Shown: piece by piece, positions 9,492 through 56,518 of the stretch | Layout: each line of letters starts with the position of its first letter | Numbering within the stretch: the stretch's first letter is position 1 | Source of the DNA: Promethearchaeota archaeon | Lineage (GTDB): Archaea > Asgardarchaeota > Lokiarchaeia > Sigyniarchaeales > SOKP01 | DNA: 64,000 bases | Reading direction: 5' to 3' | Assembly (NCBI GenBank): GCA_018238625.1 | Contig: JABCSY010000007.1 | Coordinates: 1-64,000, forward strand | Translations under genes and position numbers: made by a program | The notes under the pieces: generated by a model | Databases searched by the model: none | What the model was told of the DNA's origin: nothing | The model's input: only the letters and a program-made list of their open reading frames with translations

Positions 9492-9824
9492 ATGATTAAA
9501 AAAGATTTAGTAAAGATTGCATTGGTACCATGTTCTAAATGTGGAAGAGTTTTTAAAGCCAAGATTACACAAGATATTTTAAATGATGTCGAAAGATATC
9601 CATTTACTATTGTTTTGATGCATGTTTCTATGGAAAATGGAAAAAAAGAGATACATACTCTTGTTGCATATCTCGACAAATATTTAAACTGCAGACATGT
9701 TACAGTTCTACTAGGAAGAAGATTATTCATAACACCCTATGTTTTATATAATCCTAATCTGCTAATACTCTCATGTAATAGGAGTTTAACAAAAAATAAT
9801 TATATAGATGGTGTTAAATCGTGA
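9492..9824 (+). CDS. Small putative Zn-binding protein (CxxC...H...HxxxxYLD), coupled to GTPase
   Basis: CSKC, MH, HTLVAYLD; stop overlaps GTPase start. Confidence 0.7.
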   Translation: MIKKDLVKIALVPCSKCGRVFKAKITQDILNDVERYPFTIVLMHVSMENGKKEIHTLVAYLDKYLNCRHVTVLLGRRLFITPYVLYNPNLLILSCNRSLTKNNYIDGVKS

Positions 9825-10369
9825 TGATAAAACAATCTGTAAGTAATATGTTTAAAAAGAATATTTATAAGGTAGTTGTAGGAGGAGAAGGTGCTGTTGG
9901 AAAAACTACAATTTGCCAAAGACTTGCCGGAACTTTGGAACGTGAAAAAGATCGGCTTATGACGATTGGCGTTGATTTTCATAGTTTAAAAATTAAAAAT
10001 GGTAAATTATTTGAAGCTCAAGTCTGGGATTTAGGGGGACAAGAACAATTCAGAGATTTTCAGCAACCATTTTTCAAAAATGCTAAAATTGCTATATTTG
10101 TATTTTCTGTTGAATGGTTCGATACAATGGTATATATTGATTTTTGGTTAGATATGTTAAAAGATGAAAATCCTGTTAAAATTTATCTAATTGGAAATAA
10201 AATCGATTCTCCTAATAGATTTGTAAGAATTGATGAAGCATTAGAGTTCGCTAGAGATAGAAATTTGTCATATTATGAAATTTCTGCAATTAAAGGAACT
10301 GGTTTTGAAAATTTTAAAGAAGATTTAATCCAAACAATCCAAACCATAGCAAATTTAAATATTAATTAA
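9821..10369 (+). CDS. Rab/Ras-superfamily small GTPase
   Basis: G1 GEGAVGKTT, G2 TIGVDF, G3 WDLGGQ, G4 NKID, G5 SAI. Confidence 0.95.
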   Translation: MMIKQSVSNMFKKNIYKVVVGGEGAVGKTTICQRLAGTLEREKDRLMTIGVDFHSLKIKNGKLFEAQVWDLGGQEQFRDFQQPFFKNAKIAIFVFSVEWFDTMVYIDFWLDMLKDENPVKIYLIGNKIDSPNRFVRIDEALEFARDRNLSYYEISAIKGTGFENFKEDLIQTIQTIANLNIN

Positions 10370-30066: not shown

Positions 30067-33000
30067 TTATTTTCTTTTTATTAAAATCATCTCTTTTTGC
30101 CTTTTGCTATATCTTCTATAAAAAATATAAATACTTGCTATAGCTCCTAAAATGACAAAAGTCAAAATTATTTGAATTTGATTAGGTGGAACTAATACTC
30201 GAATGCTACTAATGGTTGATATTAATCCACTTTTATCGTGCATAATAATATTGATATCTTTCCAACCTGAACTAAGTGAAACACGAATATCTTTGTTTGT
30301 TACATGACCTTGACTTACACCATTTACGATCACTTCAAAATAATCATAACTTGCGTCGGTATCCCATTCAATTTTAAAATTATGGGAACTCATCGATCCT
30401 AAATCAGTAGGAGATAATATCTGAACCGAAAACTTTGAATTTATGCAATATAAGCTATCTTGACTTACCACTAAGATTTCACTTCTATTATCTTCGTTTA
30501 AATCTAAGAGAGGGTAAATCGAAGATACATCCAAATTAAATCTATATAAAAATTTTCGTTTCATTACATCCAGAATTTCAAAAGTCGGAGATTGAGAGTA
30601 TGATTCCCAACCATATTCATCAGTTGATTTAACAAATAAATCACGGTCTATTAAGATTTCACTATAATTGTCTCCATTGATATCTCCAATATTTTCGAAA
30701 TTTCGAATAAATTCATAAGAAGGATATGAAAAAAAAGGATTTGAACACTCAAAAGGTTCAAGATCCCATCTAAATTGTGTTAATTCAATTCCTTCATTTT
30801 CATCGCTATTGTATACATCGTAAAATTGTATTCGACATCCTCTACAATCCCATCCTTCAGACTGGAATCCAACTATTGCATCTGAAATCCCATCATTATT
30901 AATATCTCCTATAGAAGAAAAAGGCATTTTAGATTTACTAGAATACTCTGCATCATAATTTTGATATATATTTTGAAAAGATTCTTTAAATAAAACAATG
31001 GGATTTGAATCCCCAGAATTACCGCTATAGATTTTCACTTCACGTGTAGGAGTGTAATATCCATTTGTAGGTCTATATATACCTACATGATCTAAAAAAG
31101 TATCTCCATTAAAATCCTCGTAAGATGTTAATAGTTTAAGTCTAACTACATCCAAGCTAAAGTCAACACTTCCAGCAGTTAAACTTGAATACCAGTTTAC
31201 TGATACTAGTCCATAGGTGGGAATTATACTTATGGTAGACTTGTTATTAATATCTACTGTTTTAATATCAGTGAGTGCTATATCTCCACTCTCAGAATAG
31301 ACATACTTGCCTAAAATTAGTCCTATCTTTCCATTAACAGATATAATTGTTTTTCCTGGAAGTTCGTAAGGTTTGAAACCATACCTATCTACATTAGGAA
31401 ATGAAGGGATTATTTCCCATTTGTAATCAATAGCTACTTCTGAATCTGTATAATTATCAAAATATGAGATTGATGTGTCCCAATATGGATTCTCGATTAA
31501 TTTATGAGAACAATTATATTTATCTCCAAATTTAAAAATTCCACTTATTATCCAGCTATTTAGACTATTATTTATTGGTAAAATTCTTACATTCTGATAT
31601 GGAATAATAGTTTTATTAAGACTCCATTTATCAAAGAATAAATTATTTTTTATATCAAAAAGGCGTATTCTTGAACTCCAAGCATCATCTGGATTTTCAT
31701 TGAAACCTTCCTTTCCAATAACGGCAATAATATCTAAGTAATTATCTCCAGTTCCGTTAATTACTTCAAAACTTTGAACTTCTAAGTCTAATAAATTAAC
31801 ATCATTAAACTCACTTTCCCATTCATTAACAGAATATTTCCATATATAATATGGGTCATATTCATTATCAAATAAACCCCAATAAAAAGCCCCTAATCCA
31901 AAATTATCAATTATTAAATCAAAAGGAATTTGATTATTTGAAACATTTATTCGAATTCTTATTTCCTTATTTGAATTTATAAAATCTGATAATGTAGTTT
32001 TATTTTCATAATCAAATTCTAAACATGGATATGCATCTTTAGTTCCACGAGTGATTATCCACATATGATCATACTGATAACCAGTATTATTTAATGGATA
32101 ATCTGAATAGTTAGTTCTCGGACTTTTAAAGCCTCCCTTTAAATCAGGATAAGTATGATTATTCCACGTTGTATGCTGATTATCCCAATTGCATATAACC
32201 CATCTTTCACTTGTAGCGTTATAAATTTCATAAGTAAAAGTATACCCGCTAGAGGATGATGTATTTACCATTAATTTAGTTTGCATTTTGAATGCTGAGA
32301 GTCTTTCTATTTGAGAAAGGGGAAATTCCATCCCGCCTAATAATTTATCCTCTAAAAAATCCAATGGGACAATTAGATCCACTACGGCATTCCAGGATCC
32401 AGAATCCTGTGTTGCCTTTACAGTATAGTTTCCATAAGAATAAATATAATCTACTGTTAATTTATCGATTGCAAGTGTAAATGCTGTTGCATTAACTGCT
32501 TCTAATTTGATTTTTACTAGTTTTTGGTCTCCTAGTGTTAAATTTTCTAAATTATTCAGGATTTTTGTCATATTTGTATATAATGCCGTATTATTTATAG
32601 CTGGTGTACTGATTTTATTCCAATGACCACCATTAGAAAAGTTAAAAATATACATGTCAATTTGTTCAATAAGAGCGCTTGATAAAAATCCTTGATAATC
32701 TACAACAAGATTATGTAGCTCACTATTGATAGGATTAGATAAATTAAATGATAATTCTACATTGATCTTATCTTTTCCAGCTGTTGGTACAGAATTTAAA
32801 ACCCAATATTGATTATCTCCACTTTCAACGCTACCTACAGATGTACTATTAGAAGTTGTTCCAATCTTTAGTGATTTTGTTGAATCTGATGAATTATAAG
32901 ACGTATATGTATAGTTTGAATTTTGATTTCCCCATAGATCAAATTCCCTATTGGTAGAAGTTCCATTAATCAGTTCAATACTTTCTGCGCGTAATAATGA

Positions 33001-35241
33001 AGAGATTTCCCAAATTTCATCCCAATTTAAATTATAACTGTTATGCCAGCTATCGTCGATTTCTTCATTTATTCTATTATGAATTTGAAAATCTCCCGAA
33101 TCCATAGGGGATATTGGATTTTCATAACTCCCTTCATATTCAAAATGTCGATAGAATTTATAAGGGGTATTTATTAACGAAGTATTCCAAAATATATTCC
33201 CTGATAATCCATCTATAACTAAGAATTTTATATATTTACTTAACAAAGATTTATAAATTTTCTCTGCCATACTTGATTGGATACTCTCTTGATCCGATAG
33301 ATCTTTAACAATTTGTGTTATCTCTGGAGGTATCGTTGAAGGAATAATCCAAGAAGCATAATCATCAACATTATCATCATTAATATCTCCTATATTCTTT
33401 ATATCTCTTAAACCCTCATAATATTGAAGTGCTGAGATTTCAAAATCCCAGATTATTTCACCACTTTTTCCATCAACAGAGTATAACTCCTTTATAATTT
33501 GTTTTCCATTATTTTCTGATTGACTCCATTCAGGTTCAAAGCTACTTATTTTTTCCACTAAAAAATCGTTAAATCCATTATTATTTAAATCTTCAATCTC
33601 TATTACTTCTGTATCAAAATCCTCATTAGGTCTTACCCATATAATTTCATCATTTTTGCAATCAATACATAAATATCGTCCATTAGCAGAAATTGCAAAT
33701 AAATCTTCTACACTATCACCATTAACATCACCAATATTCAAGAGATAATGAGTAATAAAAGTATCATGATAGTAAGATGGGTATTCATATTCTCCAAGAT
33801 CTCGATAAACAACAATAGGATATTCTGAGCCAATATCGTTTATATCAAAACGGTTAATCAACGACGCTTCAGGTGTGTTATAATCAGTTTCATATTGGTA
33901 AAAACATAACTGAATTCCATAATCAAGAGCTATAACTTCAGGATAAGAACTAAAGTAAAAATCTTCGTAAGTCCAATTAATAAAATTAGTAATTCTAAAT
34001 TTTTCTTCTGAAGTTGGATCAAGTTGAAATAAAATCCCTTGAATAACACCATTTTGAAATAGATCATAAACACTTGAACTATAGTCAAGATGACAACTAA
34101 TTGATATATATTCATCAATCCCATCGTTATTCGTATCTGGAATAGGATAAATTTTTATCCCAGATTTCATAAAAACTCTTCTAACTGAAGAATAAGGAGA
34201 TGTGGGTATATTATATCTGGATAAAGGTGATGTTGATTCAGTCATATTATAACATATAACATTATCAATCTCATTTCCGTATCTTCCAGAAATTATTCTT
34301 AAATAACCATCATCAGCCGCAATAAGAACATCGTTAATAGAGTCATCATCAATATCTCCAACGATTAGTATTTCATCAATTGAATTGGGAACTTCTACAT
34401 AAGTATAATGAAACATATCAAAGATGAGTACTGAGGATTTTCTCAGGGAATAACTCCATAATTTGGTTCCGATCTTTGAATCAAATGCGATTAATTCTCC
34501 TTCTTCTGATCCCGCTACAATAGTTTGATATCCATTATTATTAATATCATCCAATACTTCTAACTTCCAAATATCATTTGTAAAATCTTTATCATTCATC
34601 CAAACTTTAGCACCCGATTTTCCATTTATAACGTATAATCTATACCATGAAGAAATTACGATTTCTGGAATAAAGTCATCAGTAATATCATTGACTATTT
34701 CTATATCCCATGAATATGTAATATGGTCTTGCTCTTCATAATTTTCGGTACTTATACCTTTTATCGTAGGTTTAAACTTCCATATTTCTGACCCATTATT
34801 GGAGGCTATTGCTATTAGATTAGGATGATCTTTATTGTAAGTAATGAGAACTATATCTTTAACATCATCACCAGAAATATCTTCAATAATTTCGAAATCA
34901 ATTACAGGACCCATTGTTCTATAACTCATTTTAATAAAACCATTCAAGGTGATTGTTGCAATTCCTTTATCCATTCCTACAACAATTAAAGAAGGACCTC
35001 CTTCAGTAAAATTTACCATTCTAGGTTGCACTGTTGGTCCATCCCCCGGTATACCTTTACCTACTTTCCAGAGTATTGAATCTGCCCCAGAGCCTCCATT
35101 TTGAGATCCAAGATTAATCACACTCTCATTTGTCAATATATTAGATGGAATTGTAACAATAATAGGTAATAGCAATAAAATACCTATTATTATCGTCGTA
35201 AATACTTTATACCTTCGTTTTAAAATCATTGCAACTTTCAT
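30067..35241 (-). CDS. Large membrane-anchored surface protein with FG-GAP/PQQ-like beta-propeller repeats
   Basis: About 12 DxNxDG-type loops (e.g. GDVNGDSVEDL, GDINNDGISD); N-terminal signal, C-terminal TM with basic tail. Confidence 0.88.
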   Translation of the reverse strand: MKVAMILKRRYKVFTTIIIGILLLLPIIVTIPSNILTNESVINLGSQNGGSGADSILWKVGKGIPGDGPTVQPRMVNFTEGGPSLIVVGMDKGIATITLNGFIKMSYRTMGPVIDFEIIEDISGDDVKDIVLITYNKDHPNLIAIASNNGSEIWKFKPTIKGISTENYEEQDHITYSWDIEIVNDITDDFIPEIVISSWYRLYVINGKSGAKVWMNDKDFTNDIWKLEVLDDINNNGYQTIVAGSEEGELIAFDSKIGTKLWSYSLRKSSVLIFDMFHYTYVEVPNSIDEILIVGDIDDDSINDVLIAADDGYLRIISGRYGNEIDNVICYNMTESTSPLSRYNIPTSPYSSVRRVFMKSGIKIYPIPDTNNDGIDEYISISCHLDYSSSVYDLFQNGVIQGILFQLDPTSEEKFRITNFINWTYEDFYFSSYPEVIALDYGIQLCFYQYETDYNTPEASLINRFDINDIGSEYPIVVYRDLGEYEYPSYYHDTFITHYLLNIGDVNGDSVEDLFAISANGRYLCIDCKNDEIIWVRPNEDFDTEVIEIEDLNNNGFNDFLVEKISSFEPEWSQSENNGKQIIKELYSVDGKSGEIIWDFEISALQYYEGLRDIKNIGDINDDNVDDYASWIIPSTIPPEITQIVKDLSDQESIQSSMAEKIYKSLLSKYIKFLVIDGLSGNIFWNTSLINTPYKFYRHFEYEGSYENPISPMDSGDFQIHNRINEEIDDSWHNSYNLNWDEIWEISSLLRAESIELINGTSTNREFDLWGNQNSNYTYTSYNSSDSTKSLKIGTTSNSTSVGSVESGDNQYWVLNSVPTAGKDKINVELSFNLSNPINSELHNLVVDYQGFLSSALIEQIDMYIFNFSNGGHWNKISTPAINNTALYTNMTKILNNLENLTLGDQKLVKIKLEAVNATAFTLAIDKLTVDYIYSYGNYTVKATQDSGSWNAVVDLIVPLDFLEDKLLGGMEFPLSQIERLSAFKMQTKLMVNTSSSSGYTFTYEIYNATSERWVICNWDNQHTTWNNHTYPDLKGGFKSPRTNYSDYPLNNTGYQYDHMWIITRGTKDAYPCLEFDYENKTTLSDFINSNKEIRIRINVSNNQIPFDLIIDNFGLGAFYWGLFDNEYDPYYIWKYSVNEWESEFNDVNLLDLEVQSFEVINGTGDNYLDIIAVIGKEGFNENPDDAWSSRIRLFDIKNNLFFDKWSLNKTIIPYQNVRILPINNSLNSWIISGIFKFGDKYNCSHKLIENPYWDTSISYFDNYTDSEVAIDYKWEIIPSFPNVDRYGFKPYELPGKTIISVNGKIGLILGKYVYSESGDIALTDIKTVDINNKSTISIIPTYGLVSVNWYSSLTAGSVDFSLDVVRLKLLTSYEDFNGDTFLDHVGIYRPTNGYYTPTREVKIYSGNSGDSNPIVLFKESFQNIYQNYDAEYSSKSKMPFSSIGDINNDGISDAIVGFQSEGWDCRGCRIQFYDVYNSDENEGIELTQFRWDLEPFECSNPFFSYPSYEFIRNFENIGDINGDNYSEILIDRDLFVKSTDEYGWESYSQSPTFEILDVMKRKFLYRFNLDVSSIYPLLDLNEDNRSEILVVSQDSLYCINSKFSVQILSPTDLGSMSSHNFKIEWDTDASYDYFEVIVNGVSQGHVTNKDIRVSLSSGWKDINIIMHDKSGLISTISSIRVLVPPNQIQIILTFVILGAIASIYIFYRRYSKRQKEMILIKRK

Positions 35242-41276: not shown

Positions 41277-41960
41277 CTATAATTTTGGGCTATTCTTATT
41301 TTTAGCTCTTATTAGCGAATAAATTCCATAAAATAACATTATTAGACACAAAAATAGTGCTGGGAGCATAGAAATAGCGAATGATGAAAATTCATCTGTA
41401 CCAAATGGAGCTACACAACATAAACATATAAAAATACTATAAACTATTAAAATAAGAGAAATTGTTATTAGAACAACACCAAGAATTCTTTCGTTCTTAA
41501 CATTTACTATACCTTTGTCAATATAAAATAAATTAAGCTCCTTATTCCCTATAAGGGCAAAAATTGCACTAAAGAAAAATCCCCAAGATGATAACCGTAT
41601 AGTAATAATCTCGAAAGATAAATAATATTGACTTGCTATTAGCAGTATAATTGCTATGGCATAAATTAGATTTTTATCGTATGGATTACCAAGTTTGGCA
41701 TTACGTAACTCACCAAAAAATACCACTAGTAAAATCATTGCATTAACTATTAAAAAATAACCCTGAAATATATTACCACTAATATATAATTCTATCTCTT
41801 CAGTTGGATTGCGTGGAATTAAGATGTAAAACCCATAGATCCAATGAACCATGTCTCCAACATCAAATCCTATAGCCTGACTTACATGAGTTGGGAAAAT
41901 AAGTTCGATTATTGAAAAACCAAGTGATAAATAAAAGAATATTTTAATTTTCCAGGGCAT
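41277..41960 (-). CDS. Membrane protein, tandem paralogue A
   Basis: Shares FPTHVSQAIGFDVGDMVHWIYG with 42076-42768. Confidence 0.8.
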   Translation of the reverse strand: MPWKIKIFFYLSLGFSIIELIFPTHVSQAIGFDVGDMVHWIYGFYILIPRNPTEEIELYISGNIFQGYFLIVNAMILLVVFFGELRNAKLGNPYDKNLIYAIAIILLIASQYYLSFEIITIRLSSWGFFFSAIFALIGNKELNLFYIDKGIVNVKNERILGVVLITISLILIVYSIFICLCCVAPFGTDEFSSFAISMLPALFLCLIMLFYGIYSLIRAKNKNSPKL

Positions 41961-42075: not shown

Positions 42076-42768
42076 TTACTGCTGCAATTTTGATCTATTC
42101 TTATTTTTAGCTCTTATTAGCGAATTTATACCGTAATATAACATTATTAGCAACAAAATAAGTGCTGGGTACATATTAGAAGCGAATGATAGTAAAAATA
42201 CATCTACTTCAAATAGAACTACAGAAGGTAAAATCATAGATATAATATAAACTAGAAAAATAAGAGATATCGTTATTAGAATAACACCAAGTTTTCTTTC
42301 TTTCTTAACATTTACTACACCTTTGTCAATGTAAAATAAATTAAGCTCCTTATTCCCCATAAGGGCAAAAAGCGCGCTAAAGATAAATCCCCAAATCGAT
42401 AACCGCATAACTATAATTAAGTTGTTTAATTCATAAAATTGACTTGCCATTAGCTGTATAAATGCAATTACGTAAATTAGATTTTTATCGTATCGATTAC
42501 CCCGTTTAGCACTACGCAACTCAACAAAAGAAACTACTAGAAAAAGAACAGCAATAAATATGAAAAAATAGCTCGGACCAGAACTATTATTATATAATTC
42601 TATCTCTCCAGTTGGATTGCGTGGAAATAGGATGTAATACCCATAGATCCAATGAACCATGTCTCCAACATCAAATCCTATAGCCTGACTTACATGAGTA
42701 GGGAAGATAAATCCACATAATGAAAAACCAAGTGATAAATAAAAGTATATATCAATTTTCCTAGGCAT
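42076..42768 (-). CDS. Membrane protein, tandem paralogue B
   Basis: Duplicated with 41277-41960, including upstream DNA. Confidence 0.8.
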   Translation of the reverse strand: MPRKIDIYFYLSLGFSLCGFIFPTHVSQAIGFDVGDMVHWIYGYYILFPRNPTGEIELYNNSSGPSYFFIFIAVLFLVVSFVELRSAKRGNRYDKNLIYVIAFIQLMASQFYELNNLIIVMRLSIWGFIFSALFALMGNKELNLFYIDKGVVNVKKERKLGVILITISLIFLVYIISMILPSVVLFEVDVFLLSFASNMYPALILLLIMLYYGINSLIRAKNKNRSKLQQ

Positions 42769-43948: not shown

Positions 43949-45754
43949 TTAATCCATTACTTTTTCAAATTCATTAACAAATTCTTCGATTTGCTTTATC
44001 CCTAGCTTCCAAAAGTCGGGTTTGGTTATATCTAAACCAACAATATCGCCTAACTCAACAGGAGATAAACTTCCTCCCGCACTTAAAAGTTTCTTAAATT
44101 TAGGGATAAAAGACTGACCTTCTTCCTTGTACTTTCGATATAAAGCAAATACAAAAAGTTGGGCGTATACGTAGGGGTAATTGTAAAATCGAAAATTCGG
44201 CTGATAATAATGGGGTTTCATAGTCCATTCCCATATTAATTCAACGAACCACTCAACAGAGTCACCGTATATTCTATCTCTTCCAGCACACCAGTATTTC
44301 GAGATTGTTGGACCATCTAAATTTTCGCCGTTTTCGATCGCATCGTATAAACTTTGTTCAAACCATAAGCGCCCACTTACTTGAAACGCTGCTTGACCTG
44401 CGTCGTCTAACACATGTGCTAAAAGCGCCCTTTTTTCTTCGTTACTTTCTGCTTTCTTTAGTAAAAGATCCGTCATTAAAAGCTCGCCAAATGTGGAGGC
44501 AGTTTCAGCAACCGTATATCCTGGGAAGCCGTTAAAGTACGATTGTTCGTCTGAAGCAAGATAAGCGTGAATCGCGTGACCAAGCTCGTGAGCAAGAGTG
44601 TAAATTTCATTTAAGGCACCTGTAAACGATAGTAAAATAAAGGCAGATTTTCCTTTGCTCCAAGAGTCGCAATATGCTCCATTTCTTTTTCCTTTTCTTA
44701 CAGCAGCGTCTATATGTTTTTTTGTGAACATATCATTAACATATTTCTCAAAATCTTTATCGACATTTCCGTAAGCTTCTAAAACAAGTTCTTTTGCTTC
44801 AGTCCAAGAACGATTTTTCATTGAAGGCGATTTAATAGGTGCTCGAACATCAGCACAAGTAAGTTTAGGTAAATTCATAAGTTTTGCTTTAAGTTTTAAA
44901 TACTTTCGATAAACGCCTACATTTTCCTCTATAACATTCATCAAATTGTCAATAATAATTCGTGTTGTATCATTTGTAATAAGGCTCTGATGCATTGGAC
45001 TATCGTATTTACGCCTTTTGGTAATTTTCATCCAATCTGAACAAATATTTCTGAGCGCTGTGGAAAAAACTTCCTGATCTTTACCTAATAAACTATAGAT
45101 AGATTTGTTAGCAGAGATCCTCGTTGCTCTATCGGGATGAGTTATTAAACTATTTGCCTCTCCATAAGATAAAGATTTCTTTTCTCCTTCTACTTCGACC
45201 TCAAATTCCCTAGTATTTAACCATTTACCCTGCAAACTGCTCCATGCTTTTATTCCATATTGGTCCTTCTCTAAGATCAATTGTTCCTCAACCTCTGAGA
45301 GTTGATGTGGAACATCTCTTCTAATCTTCTCTAAAAAATGTTTATAGTCTTTTAATATTGGATCATCAACCAATTCTTTTCGACCATAAACAAGCTTACC
45401 GATTTCCAAATCAAAAAAAGCCAGTTTCTTGGAAGTATCAGTGTTAAAGTCATCAATTTTATTTTTTAGCGCCTCTAATTCTGGAATTGTCATGTTCGCA
45501 TCGTACGACCTATGAGAAAATAACGCTAATTCTTCGAGATTTTCGTAAAAATCTTCTTGCTTCTTAAATAACTCGTATAAATCCTTAGCTGAAAAACTCG
45601 GTACGTTTAATTTTCCTTTAAACGTCTTTACAAAATCTTCCACTTGTTTATGAAGCGAGTCCATAGTCTTGGAAATTCTTGGATCATCGTGACCCAAAAA
45701 TATTTCAGATAAATCCCACGCAATTTCGGTTTCTTTTTTATTCATAATAATCAA
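43949..45754 (-). CDS. pepF: Oligoendopeptidase F (M3B)
   Basis: WDLSEIF, GKRNGAYC, TLAHELGHAIH, AETAS, FYNYPY. Confidence 0.93.
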   Translation of the reverse strand: MIIMNKKETEIAWDLSEIFLGHDDPRISKTMDSLHKQVEDFVKTFKGKLNVPSFSAKDLYELFKKQEDFYENLEELALFSHRSYDANMTIPELEALKNKIDDFNTDTSKKLAFFDLEIGKLVYGRKELVDDPILKDYKHFLEKIRRDVPHQLSEVEEQLILEKDQYGIKAWSSLQGKWLNTREFEVEVEGEKKSLSYGEANSLITHPDRATRISANKSIYSLLGKDQEVFSTALRNICSDWMKITKRRKYDSPMHQSLITNDTTRIIIDNLMNVIEENVGVYRKYLKLKAKLMNLPKLTCADVRAPIKSPSMKNRSWTEAKELVLEAYGNVDKDFEKYVNDMFTKKHIDAAVRKGKRNGAYCDSWSKGKSAFILLSFTGALNEIYTLAHELGHAIHAYLASDEQSYFNGFPGYTVAETASTFGELLMTDLLLKKAESNEEKRALLAHVLDDAGQAAFQVSGRLWFEQSLYDAIENGENLDGPTISKYWCAGRDRIYGDSVEWFVELIWEWTMKPHYYQPNFRFYNYPYVYAQLFVFALYRKYKEEGQSFIPKFKKLLSAGGSLSPVELGDIVGLDITKPDFWKLGIKQIEEFVNEFEKVMD

Positions 45755-47575: not shown

Positions 47576-48826
47576 TTATAGCCAGCCTCTCAATTTCATA
47601 GCTTCAATAACTCTTTCAATAGCTATACTATAAGCTCCCATTCGATTATAAGTGTTATATTCTTTGGCATGGTCCACTGTAGAACGGTACGCATTAGTCA
47701 TTACTCTATCTAACGCTGTAAACACTTCTTTTTCTGTCCAGTAATATAGATAATATCCTTGCACCATTTCAAAGTAGGAAACAGTCACTCCACCAGCATT
47801 ACAAAGGAAATCGGGAATTACAAGAATCCCTTTTTCAAAAAGAACATTGTCTGCATCTGGGGTAGTTGGGCCATTTGCTAATTCAGCAATAATTTTACAA
47901 TTTATGTTCTCAACATTTTTACTGGTTATAACATTTTCAAGCGCTGCCGGTGCTAAAACATCAACTTCTAACTCTAACAACTCTTCGTTCGATATCTTCT
48001 GTGTTCCTTCTAAACCAACGACGGTTCTTGTTTTCTCTTTGTGTAATCCTGCCTTAAACGCGTCAAGTCCATCCTTGTTATATATTCCACCTTTAGAATC
48101 TGATACTGCTACTATTTTGCAATTGAAATCATTTTGTAGAATTTTTGCTGCCCAGGAACCCGCATTTCCGTAACCTTGAACCGCTACTGTGGCACCGTTT
48201 AGGTTTAACCCAATGTCTTTCGCAGCTTCTCTAACGGTATAAACGCCTCCTTGTGCAGTTGCTATTGAGCGCCCTGCGCTTCCTCCTATTGGCAAAGGTT
48301 TTCCCGTAATTATCGATGGAGCGTGCTTGCGAACAATAGTTTCGTACTCATCCATCATCCAAGCCATAATTTGGGGCGTTGTATAAACATCTGGGGCTGG
48401 TACATCAACATTAGGTCCTAAGACATCCGCTAGTTTTCTAATATAAGCCCTTGCAAGGTTTTCGATTTCTCTATTGCTCATCTCTTTAGGATTGCAGATA
48501 ATACCTCCTTTGGCACCCCCAAGCGGGATGTCAACAGTAGCACATTTCCAAGTCATCCACGCGCTTAATGCTTTCACAAGAGAAGCACTTTCTTCAGGAT
48601 GCCATCGAATACCGCCTTTCATTGGTCCTCTAGCGGAGTTATATTGAGACCTAAATCCTCTGAAGGTTTTTATAGAACCATCGTCCATTTTCATCGTAAG
48701 CTTAACTTCGACGAACCTTTCTGGCACACATAAAGCGTTATATATTTCGTCACCGTAGCCTTTTATCTTGCAAGCTTCAGCAAGCTGATGTTGGGAGATT
48801 TTAAAAGGGTCTAAAATTTCGCTCAT
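47576..48826 (-). CDS. gdhA: Glutamate dehydrogenase
   Basis: [33 protein letters not shown]. Confidence 0.95.
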
Positions 48827-49111: not shown

Positions 49112-50368
49112 ATGATCGATAAAATAAACCCTTATGACGTGGTAAAAACCCAAATTGATATTGTTGCCAAAGAAATTGGATTAGATCCAAATGTAACAGA
49201 ATATCTTAAAAGAATTGAAAGAGCTTTAATTGTATCCATCCCAATTAAAATGGATAATGGATCGTTACAAATTTTTGAGGGATATAGAGTCCATCATTCT
49301 ACTGTTCGCGGTCCAGGCAAAGGAGGTATGAGATATTCCCCCCATGTTTATCTTGACGAGGTCAAAGCTCTTGCGACATGGATGACATGGAAAACTAGTT
49401 TATTAAATCTTCCTTTAGGTGGAGCAAAGGGCGGCGTTCGAGTAGATCCAAGGGAACTCTCCAAAAAAGAGTTAGAAAGACTTACTAGAAGATATACCGC
49501 TGAAATTATAAATGTAATAGGACCAGATATCGATATTCCCGCACCGGATGTTAATACTAACGCACAAATTATGGCATGGATGATGGATACTTACAGTATG
49601 CAAAAAGGGCGGTCAATTCCCGGTGTCGTTACGGGAAAACCAATCGAGATTGGTGGTTCTGTTGGCAGGCAAGCTGCTACTGGGACTGGACTATTTTTTG
49701 TACTTCAAGCTTTATGTGAAAAATTAGATTTAGACTTAAAACATTTAAAGATTGTAATTCAAGGGTTTGGTAATGTAGGATTTACGATTGCTGACCTACT
49801 TAATAAACACGGGTGCAAAGTTATAGCAGTTTCAGATGTATCAACTGGCATTTACTACGAAAACGGTTTGGATATAGAAAAGTTGGCAGCGTGGACTAAA
49901 CAAGGTAAATATTTGAAAGATTTTAAGGACGATAACTACACACTGATTAGTAATGACGAGTTACTAACGTCAAAATGCGATGTTTTAATCCCAGCCGCTA
50001 TAGAGAATCAAATTACGAGAGTAAACGCAGATAAAATTGCGAGTAAAATTGTTTTAGAAGGTGCAAATGGCCCCACAACTCCAGATGCTGACAAGATCCT
50101 ATTTAAGAAAGGAATACATGTAGTACCAGATATTCTTGCTAATAGTGGCGGAGTTTGCGTCTCTTACTTCGAGTATATCCAAGATATTAATTCATACTTT
50201 TGGAAACTTGATCGTATTAACGAAGAACTCAAAAGAATCATTATTGAAGCTTTCGAAGAAACATTTAAAATCTCAAAAGAAAGAAAGATCTCGCTTCGTA
50301 CAGCCGCCTACGTTATAGCGGTATCAAGAATCGCTAAAGCAATTGAATTAAGAGGGATTTTCCCTTAA
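49112..50368 (+). CDS. gdhA: Glutamate dehydrogenase (second paralogue)
   Basis: GPGKGGMRY, MTWK, GGAKGG, IPAPDV, GFGNVG. Confidence 0.95.
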   Translation: MIDKINPYDVVKTQIDIVAKEIGLDPNVTEYLKRIERALIVSIPIKMDNGSLQIFEGYRVHHSTVRGPGKGGMRYSPHVYLDEVKALATWMTWKTSLLNLPLGGAKGGVRVDPRELSKKELERLTRRYTAEIINVIGPDIDIPAPDVNTNAQIMAWMMDTYSMQKGRSIPGVVTGKPIEIGGSVGRQAATGTGLFFVLQALCEKLDLDLKHLKIVIQGFGNVGFTIADLLNKHGCKVIAVSDVSTGIYYENGLDIEKLAAWTKQGKYLKDFKDDNYTLISNDELLTSKCDVLIPAAIENQITRVNADKIASKIVLEGANGPTTPDADKILFKKGIHVVPDILANSGGVCVSYFEYIQDINSYFWKLDRINEELKRIIIEAFEETFKISKERKISLRTAAYVIAVSRIAKAIELRGIFP

Positions 50369-51836: not shown

Positions 51837-52685
51837 TTATTTTAATAAAAAAAGTTGTAAAAGAAATTTGAACAAATTTAGTTCATTAAGGAGAGAAAAG
51901 TTAGATATTAAATATTCAAAAATATTCTCTTCTATAAAATAATGTAAACTAACATAATATCCCTCTTGTTTTTTAATCATTTCAACAATCCTTCTTACTA
52001 AATTTATAATTTGCTTTTCAACTACCAGCATGTCGCATTTAGTAGGGTCAATATTAATGATATTAATTCCAGTAGCGTGGTTAAATGAAAATTTGCTTAA
52101 TTCAGAATTGTTCTTCACGTAATCATTACTTAGATAATGTTCAAACATAGATTCGATTTGAGAATTAATCGTTTCTTTTTTTTCAGCAGGAAAATGAGCT
52201 TCAATTAGATTTGTTAGCAAATTTAAAATTTGTTGAAACACACCTAAAATATCGAAATATTCTGCGATCGTTGTGATATTTTCGGCCGTTAACCACTGCG
52301 CATAGTATTCATCGATAACATCTTTAAAAGGGCTAAAAAGATCTGTATCGCCTTTCCATACAGAGGACCAGTTTTCTTTATCTCCAGAAACATACTTATC
52401 AAGAAAGGTTTGCATGATAACATTAAGCCGAGCCTTTAGCATATTTGCACCTATAGTTTTCTCAGATGCCGCAATAAACAGCAGCTTAGCCTCATTATCC
52501 TCTAAATAGGACCATCGGAGACCTCCCATCTCAATACTTTCTATACCTTGTTTAAATTCATAAGTAGTAAATTGATTTAATGCAGCTAAAAGACCACTGA
52601 TCAAGTCCTCATCTAAAATCAAGTCCATATACGGTTTATATAATAAGGTTATTCCGCTTTCAGAATCTAAAATCCAGATATTCAT
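51837..52685 (-). CDS. Longin-like domain protein (Asgard type)
   Basis: IWILDSESGITLLY...DLISGLLAALNQF...IESIEMG. Confidence 0.75.
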   Translation of the reverse strand: MNIWILDSESGITLLYKPYMDLILDEDLISGLLAALNQFTTYEFKQGIESIEMGGLRWSYLEDNEAKLLFIAASEKTIGANMLKARLNVIMQTFLDKYVSGDKENWSSVWKGDTDLFSPFKDVIDEYYAQWLTAENITTIAEYFDILGVFQQILNLLTNLIEAHFPAEKKETINSQIESMFEHYLSNDYVKNNSELSKFSFNHATGINIINIDPTKCDMLVVEKQIINLVRRIVEMIKKQEGYYVSLHYFIEENIFEYLISNFSLLNELNLFKFLLQLFLLK

Positions 52686-53537: not shown

Positions 53538-53744
53538 TTAATTATCCCGGAAAATTCTTGACTTTTCTTCATCTCGTTCCTCTTTGCAGTGAGGACAAAT
53601 CCACGTCTTATCGTTCTTTTTTACCGAATTTAAGCAAACATCGCAAACAGTGATATCGCATATGCAATAATGGCATTTATCTAATATATCTTTACAATCC
53701 TTCCCGCATATGTAACAATTAGGAGGGCTTTTGGTTTTGGACAT
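53538..53744 (-). CDS. Stand-alone C4C4 RING-like zinc finger
   Basis: C-x2-C-x13-C-x-C-x4-C-x2-C-x12-C-x2-C. Confidence 0.75.
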   Translation of the reverse strand: MSKTKSPPNCYICGKDCKDILDKCHYCICDITVCDVCLNSVKKNDKTWICPHCKEERDEEKSRIFRDN

Positions 53745-54089: not shown

Positions 54090-54374
54090 TCATTTCTTAG
54101 TCTTTTTTTTAAAAATATCCGGAATTAAACCCTCAATTCCAAAACGGTCCATAATAGTATCACTAATATCGACTTTAACTTTCATATCTTGCATAGCTTT
54201 TAACGATTCTCCTAACATTTTGGTGAAGCTCTCGCTCATTTCTTTAACAGCATTGGAAGTCAATTGAAGGGATTCCCGAATAGCAAGATTTGTCTCGTGT
54301 AATTCTAAAGTCATTTTTTCCATGCTTTTCCTCATTTCTGACATCTCATCTTTTAATCCCATTATCAATACCAA
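54090..54374 (-). CDS. Small coiled-coil protein
   Basis: Met/Glu/Lys-rich heptads. Confidence 0.7.
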   Translation of the reverse strand: MVLIMGLKDEMSEMRKSMEKMTLELHETNLAIRESLQLTSNAVKEMSESFTKMLGESLKAMQDMKVKVDISDTIMDRFGIEGLIPDIFKKKTKK

Positions 54375-54539
54375 TTTTAACTTATTTTATATTTTTTAAT
54401 AGTTTTGTAAATGAATGAAGTACTTAAATTTTTTACTTAAATGGAAAAGTAATCTCTTATAATTATTAAATATAACAATTACTCTTTTAAGATTGCTTAA
54501 TTATATTCAAAATAACTAATAAAATAAAAATAAATCAAA

Positions 54540-54677
54540 ATGTCTGAATGGAAATACAAAGTTAAAAAACCCGTAGCCGAAGAGGCCTTTTGTACTGGCT
54601 GAGGCATCGTTGACGGAATAATTTCGTGTATAAGTAATCTAAAAAAACAACGCAAAGAAAAGAAAAACCAAAAATAA
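54540..54677 (+). CDS. Putative micro-selenoprotein 1 (CxxU), UGA at 54600-54602
   Basis: MSEWKYKVKKPVAEEAFCTG-U-GIVDGIISCISNLKKQRKEKKNQK; conserved 3' RNA element follows. Confidence 0.65.
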
Positions 54678-54681
54678 ACTA

Positions 54682-54744
54682 AATCTCGAGGAGTAAAGCA
54701 AAAACGATAGGTTTTATTCCTTAGTTCCGCAAGAACTTGAGATT
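54682..54744 (+). ncRNA. Conserved 3'-UTR structured element, copy 1 (SECIS-like candidate)
   Basis: AATCTC/GAGATT; GAGGAGTAAAGC/GTTTTATTCCTT with loop AAAAACGATAG; AGTTC-CGCAA-GAACT. Confidence 0.75.
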
Positions 54745-54898
54745 AACTCTTACATTTTTACTTAACATTACTCTTTTTATTATTATAAAAAATTACTTAA
54801 TTGCGTGTTAACTTTATTTTTTATAAACCTAACCCTTAATACTCCTGATTTTTATAAATTTAATAATATATTTAATGATTTAAAAGTGAGAAAAACTT

Positions 54899-55048
54899 AT
54901 GTCGGAAGAAGACGAATTTGATTTTGGATTTGATGACAATTGCTATCAAACTAGTTGATCGTTACTTACTATGTGGTACTTAAGAGCTTTAAAAACGCAA
55001 AAAGCTAAAGAAAAAATGGATAAAAACATGAATAATAAAGATCTCTAA
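54899..55048 (+). CDS. Putative micro-selenoprotein 2 (Cx4U), UGA at 54956-54958
   Basis: MSEEDEFDFGFDDNCYQTS-U-SLLTMWYLRALKTQKAKEKMDKNMNNKDL; conserved 3' RNA element follows. Confidence 0.6.
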
Positions 55049-55105
55049 GATTAAGTCGTTAAACGATAGGATTTAATCGATAAGTTCTATGCAAGGACTT
55101 GAGAT
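55041..55105 (+). ncRNA. Conserved 3'-UTR structured element, copy 2
   Basis: ATCTC/GAGAT; GATTAAGTC/GATTTAATC with loop GTTAAACGATAG; AGTTC-TATGCAA-GGACT. Confidence 0.75.
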
Positions 55106-55119
55106 ACAATTTCTTATTA

Positions 55120-55131
55120 CTTTTTTTTTTT
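55120..55131 (+). terminator. Oligo-T archaeal terminator
   Basis: Long T run directly after element 2, between convergent genes. Confidence 0.5.
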
Positions 55132-55153
55132 GAAAAACAAAAAGAGAAAAACA

Positions 55154-56518
55154 TTAATAGGGTTTTTTTGGCCCTTCTCCAACCTTTCTGTAAATAAAAC
55201 CCTTTTCTTCAACCACTTTCTTGTCAAATATGTTCCTTCCATCTATAATAATCGCTGTTCTTACCTTCTTCTTTAAATCGTCAAGGTCGAGGTTATAATA
55301 TTCCTTATGGTTTGTTGCAAAGATTAATACATCAGCCCCTTTTACTGCTTCATTAAAATCACTTGTTAACTCAGTAAGTCTATAATCCCTTTCTTTTACA
55401 TACGGATCATGGGAAATGTATATAATGTTATGAGAATGATATCGATTTTGTAATACCTTAACAATATTTTCAGTTGGTGTATTTCTCACATCATCAGTAT
55501 TTGCTTTATATGATACTCCTAAAAGTACAATCTTTATATTATCTACTAGTTTATGGATTTCTCTAAATACATCCTCCATTAATTCAACCATATGGTAGGG
55601 CATATAATCGTTCAAGCTTCTTGAGTCAGGAATTATCTTTATTTTGGATTCGTTAATTTTTTCGGTATATTTATTAAATCCGTATAATAGAAGCCAAGGA
55701 TCTTTTGTCAAGCAATGTCCTCCTACGCCTGAACCGGGGTAATGCATCATTCTGTCGTGGCGTTGATTTATTAATTCTACAATTTCGTATATATTTCGAT
55801 TAAAATCTTCGCTTAATAACGCCATCTCGTTTGCAAATGCAATATTTACGTCTCGGTATGCGTTCTCTATGCATTTAGTTAACTCTGCCGTAAGGGTGTC
55901 TGTTATCTGAAGTTCTTTTTTAACAACCTTCGCGTACAAATACATAGCTTTATCGTTGGCCTCTTTACAACCACCACCAATTACCCTAGGAAAATTTATG
56001 ATATAGTCCAATAACTTACCGGGCATTACGCGCTCAAACGAAAAAACAAGATAGAAATCCTTACTCCGCTTTAAACCACTTCCTTCTTCTAAAATAGATT
56101 GTACAACATTATCTGTCGTTCCAGGTGCTACTGTAGATTCAAGTATGACTGTGGCACCCTTTTTCATGTGTTTTGAAATCTGTTGAGAAACTTCCTTTAA
56201 AGATTCGTACCTTGGGGTCCTCTGGTCGTCTACAGGCGTTTGTACATCAATTAAAATATAATCCGCATTTTTGACATCGTTATATTTGTCAGTAACTTTA
56301 AATTTTCCATTTTTTACTACTCTTTCAATTAGCTCATCTAATCCAGGCTCATCTCCTTCAAAAGGATTTTTACCGCTATTAAGCCAATCAATTTTCCAAC
56401 TAGATCTTTGAGACCTTCGTTGAATACCAGTAACATAGAAATCGTCTACATCAGCTAACAGAGCAGCCATCGGAATACCAACGTATCCCATACCAATTAC
56501 AACGATGTTAGTAGGCAT
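55154..56518 (-). CDS. Nucleotide-sugar dehydrogenase (WecC/UDP-GlcNAc-DH family)
   Basis: GMGYVG, ESTVAPGTT, ENAYRDVNIAFANE, GVGGHCL, YKANTDDVR. Confidence 0.95.
   Translation of the reverse strand: MPTNIVVIGMGYVGIPMAALLADVDDFYVTGIQRRSQRSSWKIDWLNSGKNPFEGDEPGLDELIERVVKNGKFKVTDKYNDVKNADYILIDVQTPVDDQRTPRYESLKEVSQQISKHMKKGATVILESTVAPGTTDNVVQSILEEGSGLKRSKDFYLVFSFERVMPGKLLDYIINFPRVIGGGCKEANDKAMYLYAKVVKKELQITDTLTAELTKCIENAYRDVNIAFANEMALLSEDFNRNIYEIVELINQRHDRMMHYPGSGVGGHCLTKDPWLLLYGFNKYTEKINESKIKIIPDSRSLNDYMPYHMVELMEDVFREIHKLVDNIKIVLLGVSYKANTDDVRNTPTENIVKVLQNRYHSHNIIYISHDPYVKERDYRLTELTSDFNEAVKGADVLIFATNHKEYYNLDLDDLKKKVRTAIIIDGRNIFDKKVVEEKGFIYRKVGEGPKKPY

What the first reader, a model, noticed from the sequence alone, without database searches (positions are those of the whole stretch)
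54540..55105. Tandem micro-ORFs with Cys-adjacent in-frame UGA, each followed by the same 3' RNA structure: candidate selenopeptide system
Seen: two ATG-started ORFs have TGA at codon 21 (C-T-G-TGA) and codon 20 (C-Y-Q-T-S-TGA). Each then stays open for 24 and 29 codons, encoding an amphipathic stretch and a Lys-rich tail, and ends in TAA. Each is immediately followed by a shared structured element and a T-rich tract. The peptides share layout but little sequence. A rough hand estimate for both post-UGA frames staying open by chance in ~72% AT DNA is about 1%. Known: CxxU is the typical selenoprotein redox motif, and Lokiarchaeota encode Sec using 3'-UTR SECIS elements. Inference: a family of 45-49 aa selenopeptides (redox, metal-binding, Se-sensing or modified-peptide precursors) that standard gene callers miss.
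Basis: partly seen in the sequence, partly recalled or inferred. Interest (0 to 1): 0.92.

Follow-up and report, generated by a model that had tools for sequence, protein, structure and literature searches.

The report
Two candidate selenopeptide genes with SECIS-like tails
Two neighbouring mini-genes in an AT-rich, apparently Asgard-type archaeal genome each carry one in-frame UGA and end next to the same folded RNA element, which partly resembles the signal these archaea use to insert selenocysteine; they may therefore encode a new kind of tiny selenoprotein, but this could not be checked in other genomes.

Summary
Two plus-strand ATG ORFs (54540-54677 and 54899-55048) each have a single in-frame TGA, at codon 21 and codon 20. 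They stay open for 24 and 29 more codons and end in TAA, 13 and 0 nt before a shared RNA element (54683-54743 and 55041-55105) followed by T-runs.

Anchoring on the element and shuffling the upstream 170 nt gives this architecture in 0.36% and 0.57% of trials. Codon usage is gene-like, strongly before the UGA and ambiguously after it.

The element folds as a three-way junction. Its main hairpin has a 9-bp stem and an 11/12-nt loop that starts A-rich and ends AG. That matches the published Lokiarchaeota SECIS upper part (PMC4989117), but the defining AUGA...GA core is absent.

No homologue could be retrieved. Sec machinery could not be checked. The two peptides share no detectable sequence similarity.

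Best reading (about 0.5): 45- and 49-aa selenopeptides decoded through a variant SECIS. Rivals are 19-20-aa peptides that end at UGA, or non-coding RNAs. Verdict: partly supported, interesting, unproven.

The parts
54540..54677 (+). Micro-ORF 1 (P0001, 45 aa if UGA is read): ATG 54540, in-frame TGA 54600-54602 (codon 21, context C-T-G-U), TAA 54675-54677
   Evidence: codon score; shuffles
54683..54743 (+). 3' element copy 1, a three-way junction. Outer stem 54683-54687 / 54739-54743. Hairpin 1 at 54691-54719: 9 bp (extendable to 12) with an 11-nt loop that starts with five A and ends AG. Hairpin 2 at 54723-54737
54755..54778 (+). Two T5 runs (54755-54759, 54774-54778) after copy 1; a likely archaeal oligo-T terminator (inference)
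54849..54859 (+). A/T-rich TATA-like box about 40 nt upstream of ORF2, with an SD-like GTGAG at 54886-54890 (inference only, in very AT-rich DNA)
54899..55048 (+). Micro-ORF 2 (P0002, 49 aa if UGA is read): ATG 54899, in-frame TGA 54956-54958 (codon 20, context C-Y-Q-T-S-U), TAA 55046-55048, which directly abuts the 9-bp stem
55041..55105 (+). 3' element copy 2. Outer stem 55041-55045 / 55101-55105 (its 5' strand lies in the last codons of ORF2). Hairpin 1 at 55049-55078: 9 bp with a 12-nt loop ending AG, followed by GA. Hairpin 2 at 55082-55100
55121..55131 (+). T11 run after copy 2; a likely terminator (inference). The convergent minus-strand nucleotide-sugar dehydrogenase gene ends at 55154

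Best explanation
These are two independently transcribed small genes on the plus strand. Each is translated from its ATG, and the single in-frame UGA is decoded as selenocysteine rather than stop. This gives peptides of 45 and 49 residues with Cys 3 or 5 positions before Sec.

Recoding is directed by the conserved element that begins 0-13 nt after the true TAA stop and lies 88-90 nt after the UGA. Its main hairpin (9-bp stem; 11/12-nt apical loop, A-rich at its start and ending AG) is a relative of the Lokiarchaeota/Asgard eukaryote-like SECIS. Here it is embedded in a three-way junction and lacks the canonical AUGA...GA kink-turn core.

The products would be small redox-active (selenenylsulfide-forming) or selenium-handling peptides, with the Cys...Sec pair at or just before the start of a long, C-terminally Lys-rich helix.

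Shown: the ORF layout and its improbability, gene-like codon usage, the element, its fold, and two compensatory changes in the stem. Inferred: translation, Sec insertion, that the element is the signal, and the peptide function.
For: Layout anchored on the element:
- A qualifying UGA-interrupted ORF arises in 0.36% and 0.57% of 20,000 shuffles, and in 0.02% and 0.08% when a nearby Cys is also required.
- 'Exactly one internal stop and it is TGA' occurs in 2.2% and 2.0% of shuffles.
- Stop triplets per frame are 2/4/5 and 2/3/8, with the ORF frame lowest.

Stop codons:
- TGA is a minority stop here (7 of 48 ORFs, against 34 TAA). Both first stops are TGA and both final stops are TAA.
- The window's genes are intact under table 11 with full-length Pfam matches, so TGA is not a general sense codon.

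Coding signal:
- Codon score is 0.127 and 0.159 per codon in frame, higher than in the other two frames and higher than the antisense ORFs (-0.04, -0.04, -0.32).

Element:
- Hairpin 1 has a 9-bp stem in both copies, with all 14 of 14 tested pairs standard, 2 pairs changed on both sides and 1 on one side.
- The loop in copy 1 is 11 nt, beginning AAAAA and ending AG. The element lies directly 3' of the stop. These are the features PMC4989117 section 11 lists for 25 lokiSECIS elements.
- A descriptor of those upper-hairpin features hits 3 places in 128 kb of both strands, 2 of them these, against a mean of 0.63 in 30 shuffles.
- In copy 2 the stop codon sits exactly where lokiSECIS carries its AUGA, whose UGA often serves as the stop (PMC4989117 section 13), and GA follows the stem.
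- UGA-to-stem spacing is conserved (88 and 90 nt).

Precedent and prior:
- A ~50-aa single-Sec protein (VhuU) exists in these archaea.
- 85.9% of Lokiarchaeia/Helarchaeales genomes use Sec (PMC11227280 section 12).

A distant 3' element that redefines UGA is, to my knowledge, known only for Sec.
Against: - The AUGA that was 'always' present before the stem in lokiSECIS is absent (CGAG and CUAA). GA after the stem is absent in copy 1, where the stem simply continues as 3 more pairs.
- The only pairing that would build a GA/GA core from the two invariant blocks is about 18-19 kcal/mol worse than the MFE fold and has zero pair probability.
- The second hairpin and the outer stem are not described for any SECIS (literature search).
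- Post-UGA codon scores are ambiguous (0.008 and 0.082; in ORF1 another frame scores slightly higher).
- The peptides show no sequence similarity to each other or to any Pfam/NCBIfam family.
- No Sec machinery, tRNA-Sec or known selenoprotein gene lies in the 64-kb window.
- No Rfam family matches.
- No second locus was found anywhere, so there is no comparative evidence at all.
- With two sequences the covariation has no statistical weight (134 of 500 shuffles score as high).
- The comparison with lokiSECIS rests on the paper's text; its alignments are in supplements I could not open.
Confidence: 0.5

Rival explanations
1. These are real small genes, but translation ends at the UGA. The products are 20- and 19-residue peptides, and the conserved downstream element is a 3'-UTR structure with another role (transcript stability, 3'-end formation or protein binding).
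For: - The pre-UGA parts score clearly coding (0.27 and 0.28 per codon) while the post-UGA parts are ambiguous (0.008 and 0.082).
- TGA is a genuine stop in this genome (7 of 48 ORFs).
- The element lacks the SECIS core.
Against: - Both ORFs would have to use the minority stop: (7/48)^2 = 2%.
- Both downstream frames would have to stay open up to the element by chance (0.171 x 0.024 = 0.4%).
- The likeness of hairpin 1 to the lokiSECIS upper part would also be a coincidence.
Confidence: 0.17
2. These are two paralogous non-coding RNA genes of about 200 nt. The conserved, functional part is the 3' three-way-junction domain, and the ORFs are accidental.
For: - Only the 3' element is conserved between the copies (82% identity, against no detectable similarity in the ORF parts).
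- The flanks also show repeat traces of a tandem duplication.
- The folds are stable (-19.6 and -17.6 kcal/mol; z -2.98 and -1.82).
Against: - Intact ATG ORFs of this design upstream of the element arise in only 0.36% and 0.57% of shuffles. Their presence in both copies, although the 5' parts have diverged beyond recognition, argues for selection on the frame.
- Codon usage is gene-like in the ORF frame only.
- No Rfam family matches.
- The weak C/D-box-like hit scores 15.5 bits against a threshold of 38.
Confidence: 0.13
3. The UGA is a regulated stop rather than a route to a functional selenopeptide. The mini-ORFs act as sensors of Sec-tRNA or selenium supply, or the UGA is read through without Sec, and what matters is whether ribosomes stop or continue into the element.
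For: - The peptide sequences are unconstrained between copies while the position of the UGA (codon 20/21) and its distance to the element (88/90 nt) are kept.
- In copy 2 the ORF runs into the outer stem, so a read-through ribosome would melt the element.
Against: - No gene lies downstream on the same strand to be regulated; the next gene is convergent.
- To my knowledge, known Sec-independent read-through stimulators act within about 10 nt of the stop, not at 88-90 nt.
- No precedent was found in the literature searches.
Confidence: 0.1
4. These are decaying relics: former selenoprotein gene ends whose SECIS has lost its core and no longer works.
For: Upper-hairpin likeness to lokiSECIS together with loss of AUGA...GA.
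Against: - Both ORFs are intact from ATG to TAA, with gene-like codon usage.
- The peptides match no known selenoprotein family.
- Compensatory changes keep the stem.
Confidence: 0.05

Closest known systems
lokiSECIS, the eukaryote-like SECIS of Lokiarchaeota (Mariotti et al. 2016, PMC4989117; sections 10, 11, 13, 17 read)
   Same: - Lies on the coding strand directly after, or overlapping, the stop.
- 9-bp stem.
- 11-nt apical loop whose first five bases are A-rich and whose last base is G preceded by A.
- In copy 2 the stop codon occupies the place of the AUGA, and GA follows the stem.
- Folding energy is well below -5 kcal/mol.
   Different: - No AUGA (CGAG and CUAA instead).
- No GA after the stem in copy 1.
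- Copy 2's loop is 12 nt and starts GUUAAA.
- The hairpin is one arm of a three-way junction, with a second conserved hairpin and a 5-bp closing stem that the paper does not describe.
General Asgard eSECIS-like models, types I and II (Huang et al. 2024, PMC11227280; sections 7, 8, 12, 13, 14 read)
   Same: 3'-UTR location; stem and loop sizes of hairpin 1 fall inside the allowed ranges (7-15 bp, 8-20 nt).
   Different: - The required GA...[G/A]A core is not at the base of hairpin 1.
- The only shared core-containing pairing is energetically implausible.
- My re-implementation of the sequence pattern matches 4834 of 7221 GA positions in this window, so meeting it carries no information.
- Their seven Asgard selenoprotein families include nothing this small except FrhA/VhuU.
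VhuU, the ~50-aa single-Sec hydrogenase subunit of Lokiarchaeota and Methanococcales (as described in PMC4989117 section 10)
   Same: Size class, a single Sec, and a SECIS that abuts or overlaps the stop codon.
   Different: - No match of either peptide to any Pfam or NCBIfam family, hydrogenase families included.
- The Ni-binding Sec motif that I recall for VhuU is not present.
- No hydrogenase genes lie nearby.
CxxU redox motif of thioredoxin-fold / Rdx-type selenoproteins (recalled, not tested)
   Same: ORF1 has C-x-x-U at the start of a predicted helix.
   Different: 45 residues cannot form a thioredoxin fold. ORF2 has C-x4-U. No family match.

Membership tests
lokiSECIS (PMC4989117) | Located on the coding strand close to or overlapping the end of the CDS | tested here: met
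   The stem starts 13 nt (copy 1) and 0 nt (copy 2) after the TAA
lokiSECIS (PMC4989117) | 9-bp stem | tested here: met
   9 of 9 pairs are standard in both copies, with 2 compensatory changes; copy 1 can extend to 12 bp
lokiSECIS (PMC4989117) | 11-nt apical loop, first five bases mostly A, last base G preceded by A | tested here: inconclusive
   Copy 1 meets this exactly (11 nt, AAAAA...AG). Copy 2 has 12 nt, starts GUUAAA and ends AG
lokiSECIS (PMC4989117) | AUGA immediately 5' of the stem (stated as always present) | tested here: not met
   CGAG in copy 1 and CUAA in copy 2; 0 hits in the whole window for the descriptor with ATGA
lokiSECIS (PMC4989117) | GA (AA in VhuU) immediately 3' of the stem | tested here: inconclusive
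   GA in copy 2; CU in copy 1
Asgard eSECIS-like type I pattern (PMC11227280) | NNGAN, 7-15 bp stem, 8-20 nt loop, N[G/A]ANN, energy below -5 kcal/mol | tested here: inconclusive
   The pattern is matched only by other registers. The one shared by both copies costs -0.9 and +1.6 kcal/mol, against -19.6 and -17.6 for the MFE. The pattern is non-specific here (4834 matching start positions)
Euryarchaeal SECIS (GAA_A bulge type) | Two stems separated by a GAA / A internal loop, with a G+C-rich upper stem | not tested
   No descriptor was run; none is evident by eye
Selenoprotein gene (any domain) | In-frame UGA with the reading frame continuing to a normal stop | tested here: met
Selenoprotein gene (any domain) | Homologues with Sec or Cys aligned at the UGA, and conservation on both sides | not testable with these tools
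   The single genome-contig scan gave only 2 chance hits.
Selenoprotein gene (any domain) | tRNA-Sec, EFSec, PSTK, SepSecS and SelD in the genome | not testable with these tools
   None in the window: 0 tRNA genes and none among 50 ORFs scanned with Pfam. The rest of the genome was not available
Any Rfam family (including SECIS, C/D-box, ribozymes, riboswitches) | Score at or above the family's gathering threshold | tested here: not met
   0 matches in the window at gathering thresholds. The best in the region at E<=10 are chance-level, e.g. sR51 at 15.5 bits against a threshold of 38
VhuU / [NiFeSe] hydrogenase small selenopeptide | Similarity to the hydrogenase large-subunit C-terminus | tested here: not met
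   No Pfam or NCBIfam hit at E<=1 for P0001 or P0002

The most novel reading that the evidence does not exclude
A SECIS that works without the AUGA...GA kink-turn core. In this reading the Asgard Sec elongation machinery recognises the 9-bp stem and the A-rich...AG apical loop, presented here on a three-way junction. This element drives Sec insertion into a previously unseen class of 45-49-residue selenopeptides that gene callers and homology-based selenoprotein surveys cannot see. It would also mean that Asgard selenoproteomes are under-counted, and that the kink-turn core, which these archaea have no SBP2 to read, is dispensable.
Probability: 0.3. Interest if true: 0.85.

Novelty: new variant of a known kind. 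Interest (0 to 1): 0.62.

Why it matters
Archaeal selenoproteomes are currently put at 11 families, all found by homology to known proteins (PMC13188914, passages seen; PMC11227280, section 13). [quoted passage not shown]

A working element that keeps the lokiSECIS stem and loop but not the AUGA...GA core would bear on an open question stated in both papers: what in Asgard archaea, which lack SBP2, actually recognises the SECIS.

If instead the frames are not translated past the UGA, the locus is an ordinary pair of small genes or RNAs with a conserved 3' structure.

Tried and rejected
- Rfam, whole window at gathering thresholds: 0 matches. Region at E<=10: only chance-level hits.
- tRNA scan of the window: 0 genes.
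- Search for further copies in the window by exact blocks and by covariance model R1 with filters off: none beyond the two.
- One genome-contig scan with a two-block pattern from the element. It gave 2 stretches, both in Clostridia MAGs. One lies inside a regulator-like coding region. Both score <=11.4 bits with R1 and were rejected as chance.
- Phage and plasmid collections, blastn of 54420-55135: no match in phages, and one marginal 78-nt AT-rich hit in plasmids (E 4e-3).
Not pursued further.
- Pfam and NCBIfam for both peptides: nothing at E<=1. BLASTP between them: nothing.
- Alternative fold that pairs the two invariant blocks into a GA/GA core: rejected on energy.
- A kink-turn-like hairpin around the UGA of ORF1 (54576-54605). 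The descriptor is not enriched in the window (26 found, against 24.1 in 10 shuffles) and ORF2 has no counterpart. A full C/D-box sRNA reading was rejected (no proper C', D' or spacing, by eye; 15.5 bits).
- Antisense ORFs across the units: lower codon scores (-0.04, -0.04, -0.32).
- AlphaFold2 on single sequences. P0001 gives a helix at 13-43 (mean pLDDT 74.8). P0002 gives helices at 15-18 and 22-47 (mean pLDDT 67.9). This is only weak support for a 'disordered head, Cys...Sec, long basic helix' layout. No fold search was made.
- Literature: no report of archaeal micro-selenopeptides or of a three-way-junction SECIS in the searched library.

Full report
**What is there**

Between two minus-strand genes lies a 779-nt spacer with 24.6% G+C. 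The flanking genes are a 94-aa ORF ending at 54374 and a nucleotide-sugar dehydrogenase ending at 55154.

On the plus strand the spacer holds two units about 360 nt apart.
- Unit 1: ATG 54540, TGA 54600-54602 (codon 21), 24 more sense codons, TAA 54675-54677.
- Unit 2: ATG 54899 (one base before the position implied by the finding), TGA 54956-54958 (codon 20), 29 more sense codons, TAA 55046-55048.

Each ORF is followed by the same element (54683-54743 and 55041-55105) and then by T-runs (T5 twice; T11).

The two element copies are 82% identical over 77 aligned columns. Two exact blocks occur nowhere else in the window. A covariance model of the pair finds only these two sites: 100.6 and 87.1 bits, with the next of 12 listed matches at 15.4 bits.

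Traces of repeated flank sequence upstream of unit 1 and between the units point to an old tandem duplication of the whole unit. The ORF parts themselves are no longer alignable (BLASTP none at E<=100).

**Is it more than chance?**

- Of all 1968 TGA triplets in the window, 15.8% and 11.3% have >=24 / >=29 open codons behind them. Dinucleotide shuffles of the two post-UGA stretches give 0.171 and 0.024.
- Shuffling the whole ATG-to-stem stretch gives 'exactly one internal stop and it is TGA' in 2.2% and 2.0% of 20,000 trials.
- To avoid the bias of having picked the ORFs first, I anchored on the RNA stem and shuffled the 170 nt before it. The question was whether any of the three frames holds an ATG ORF of >=40 codons with a single internal stop that is TGA, and a final stop within 18 nt of the stem. 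The answer is 0.36% and 0.57%, and 0.02% and 0.08% if a Cys within five codons before the TGA is also required.
- TGA is the minority stop (7 of 48 ORFs; TAA 34, TAG 7).
- The window's genes are intact under table 11 with full-length domain matches, so TGA is not generally a sense codon.

**Coding signal**

A codon log-odds score (window genes against intergenic triplets) gives 0.127 and 0.159 per codon in the ORF frame. Gene samples score 0.19+-0.13 and intergenic samples -0.18+-0.13. Only 2.9% and 1.7% of intergenic samples reach these values.

The signal is strong before the UGA (0.27 and 0.28). After it the signal is ambiguous (0.008 and 0.082), and in ORF1 another frame scores slightly higher. 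Antisense ORFs score lower.

Unit 2 has an SD-like GTGAG 9 nt before its ATG, of the kind seen before many genes here. Unit 1 has none, like many other genes here.

**The RNA element**

Both copies fold into the same three-way junction: -19.6 and -17.6 kcal/mol; z -2.98 and -1.82; 2 and 8 of 200 shuffles fold as well.
- A 5-bp closing stem.
- Hairpin 1, with a 9-bp stem and an 11- or 12-nt loop.
- A small hairpin 2.

All 14 of 14 tested pairs are standard in both copies. In the 9-bp stem two pairs changed on both sides and one on one side. With only two sequences this has no statistical force (134 of 500 shuffles score as high). Hairpin 2 and the closing stem do not vary, so they are neither supported nor contradicted.

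**Comparison with the published signal**

PMC4989117 (section 11) describes 25 Lokiarchaeota SECIS elements as follows:
- directly after the CDS;
- AUGA, then a 9-bp stem;
- an 11-nt loop whose first five bases are mostly A and whose last base is an ultraconserved G, usually preceded by A;
- GA (AA in VhuU) after the stem.

Copy 1 has the 9-bp stem and an 11-nt loop starting AAAAA and ending AG. Copy 2 has the 9-bp stem, a 12-nt loop ending AG, and GA after the stem. In copy 2 the TAA stop sits exactly where the AUGA, whose UGA often serves as the stop (section 13), would sit.

A descriptor of the upper-hairpin features alone hits 3 places on both strands of the window. Two are these; the third is inside a peptidase gene. 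The mean in 30 shuffles is 0.63.

The AUGA is absent in both copies (CGAG and CUAA). Copy 1 has CU instead of GA and simply extends the helix by three pairs.

The looser Asgard pattern of PMC11227280 (sections 7-8) is matched only in other registers. The one register common to both copies pairs the two invariant blocks, and it is about 18-19 kcal/mol worse than the MFE. In my re-implementation that pattern also matches 4834 of 7221 GA positions in this window, so it does not discriminate.

I therefore do not file the element as a lokiSECIS. It looks like a relative of its upper part in a new setting. A kink-turn formed across the junction, using the invariant GA of the 3' closing strand, is conceivable but is my speculation only.

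**Context and organism**

The window has 31.4% G+C. It carries a Ras-family GTPase whose best solved relatives are eukaryotic Rab11 (E 7e-22). Its uS10 is closest to ~102-aa 30S S10 chains, followed by eukaryotic S20.

This fits an Asgard archaeon, but the organism was not identified. In PMC11227280 (section 12), 85.9% of Lokiarchaeia/Helarchaeales genomes use Sec.

The window itself contains no tRNA. None of the 50 ORFs scanned belongs to a Sec-machinery or known selenoprotein family.

**What could not be done**

The single genome-contig scan returned only two chance hits and not the source genome.

As a result the decisive comparative tests remain open: Cys or Sec in homologues, conservation beyond the UGA, and the SECIS of the same genome's known selenoprotein genes.

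**The peptides**

P0001 and P0002 match no Pfam or NCBIfam family. Single-sequence AlphaFold2 models give an unstructured head and a long helix that begins at or just after the Cys...Sec pair and ends in a Lys-rich tail (mean pLDDT 74.8 and 67.9). Only ORF1 has CxxU; ORF2 has CxxxxU.

**Verdict**

The most economical account of a UGA-interrupted, gene-like ORF kept twice in front of a conserved 3' hairpin with lokiSECIS-like stem and loop is Sec recoding, giving two micro-selenopeptides (about 0.5).

The rivals are:
- termination at the UGA, with a 3'-UTR element of other function (0.17);
- non-coding RNAs (0.13);
- a regulatory stop or sensor (0.10);
- decaying relics (0.05).

Searches of the paper library found no report of archaeal micro-selenopeptides or of a three-way-junction SECIS. 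The 2026 review passages list 11 archaeal families, none of this kind.

Noticed in passing
window 54576-54605 (+): A kink-turn-like hairpin: a 3-bp G+C stem, a 3-nt bulge, tandem G.A/A.G and a 4-bp stem. Its 3' GA is the GA of ORF1's UGA codon. It is also the source of a weak Rfam C/D-box hit (sR51, 15.5 bits). The descriptor is not enriched in the window (26 found, against 24.1 in shuffles), and ORF2 has no counterpart.
   Followed up: partly
window 54430-54502 and 54755-54802 (+): Short exact or near-exact repeats (11, 11 and 14 nt) upstream of unit 1 recur between the two units with different spacing. This suggests the whole unit, including its flanks, was tandemly duplicated.
   Followed up: partly
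window 41277-41960 (-) and 42076-42768 (-): Two adjacent paralogous ORFs (227 and 230 aa, no Pfam family) with nearly identical ~35-nt upstream regions, including a TATA-like box and an SD-like motif.
   Followed up: no
window 47576-48826 (-) and 49112-50368 (+): Two divergently oriented glutamate/leucine-type dehydrogenase paralogues side by side.
   Followed up: no
window 9821-10369 (+), 51837-52685 (-), 53538-53744 (-): Eukaryote-flavoured proteins: a Ras/Rab-like GTPase (best solved relatives are Rab11), a 282-aa protein with a sub-threshold longin-domain hit, and a 68-aa Cys-rich protein with sub-threshold FYVE/RING-type zinc-finger hits.
   Followed up: no
window 30067-35241 (-): A 1724-aa ORF with only weak beta-propeller matches.
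   Followed up: no
whole window, both strands: My re-implementation of the published loose sequence pattern for Asgard type I eSECIS-like structures matches 4834 of 7221 GA positions (about 38 per kb per strand) in this AT-rich DNA. On its own it has little specificity. The authors add folding and energy filters that I did not reproduce.
   Followed up: partly
window 45312-45341 (-): The third hit of the 'lokiSECIS upper hairpin' descriptor lies inside the peptidase M3 gene. I took it as chance.
   Followed up: no
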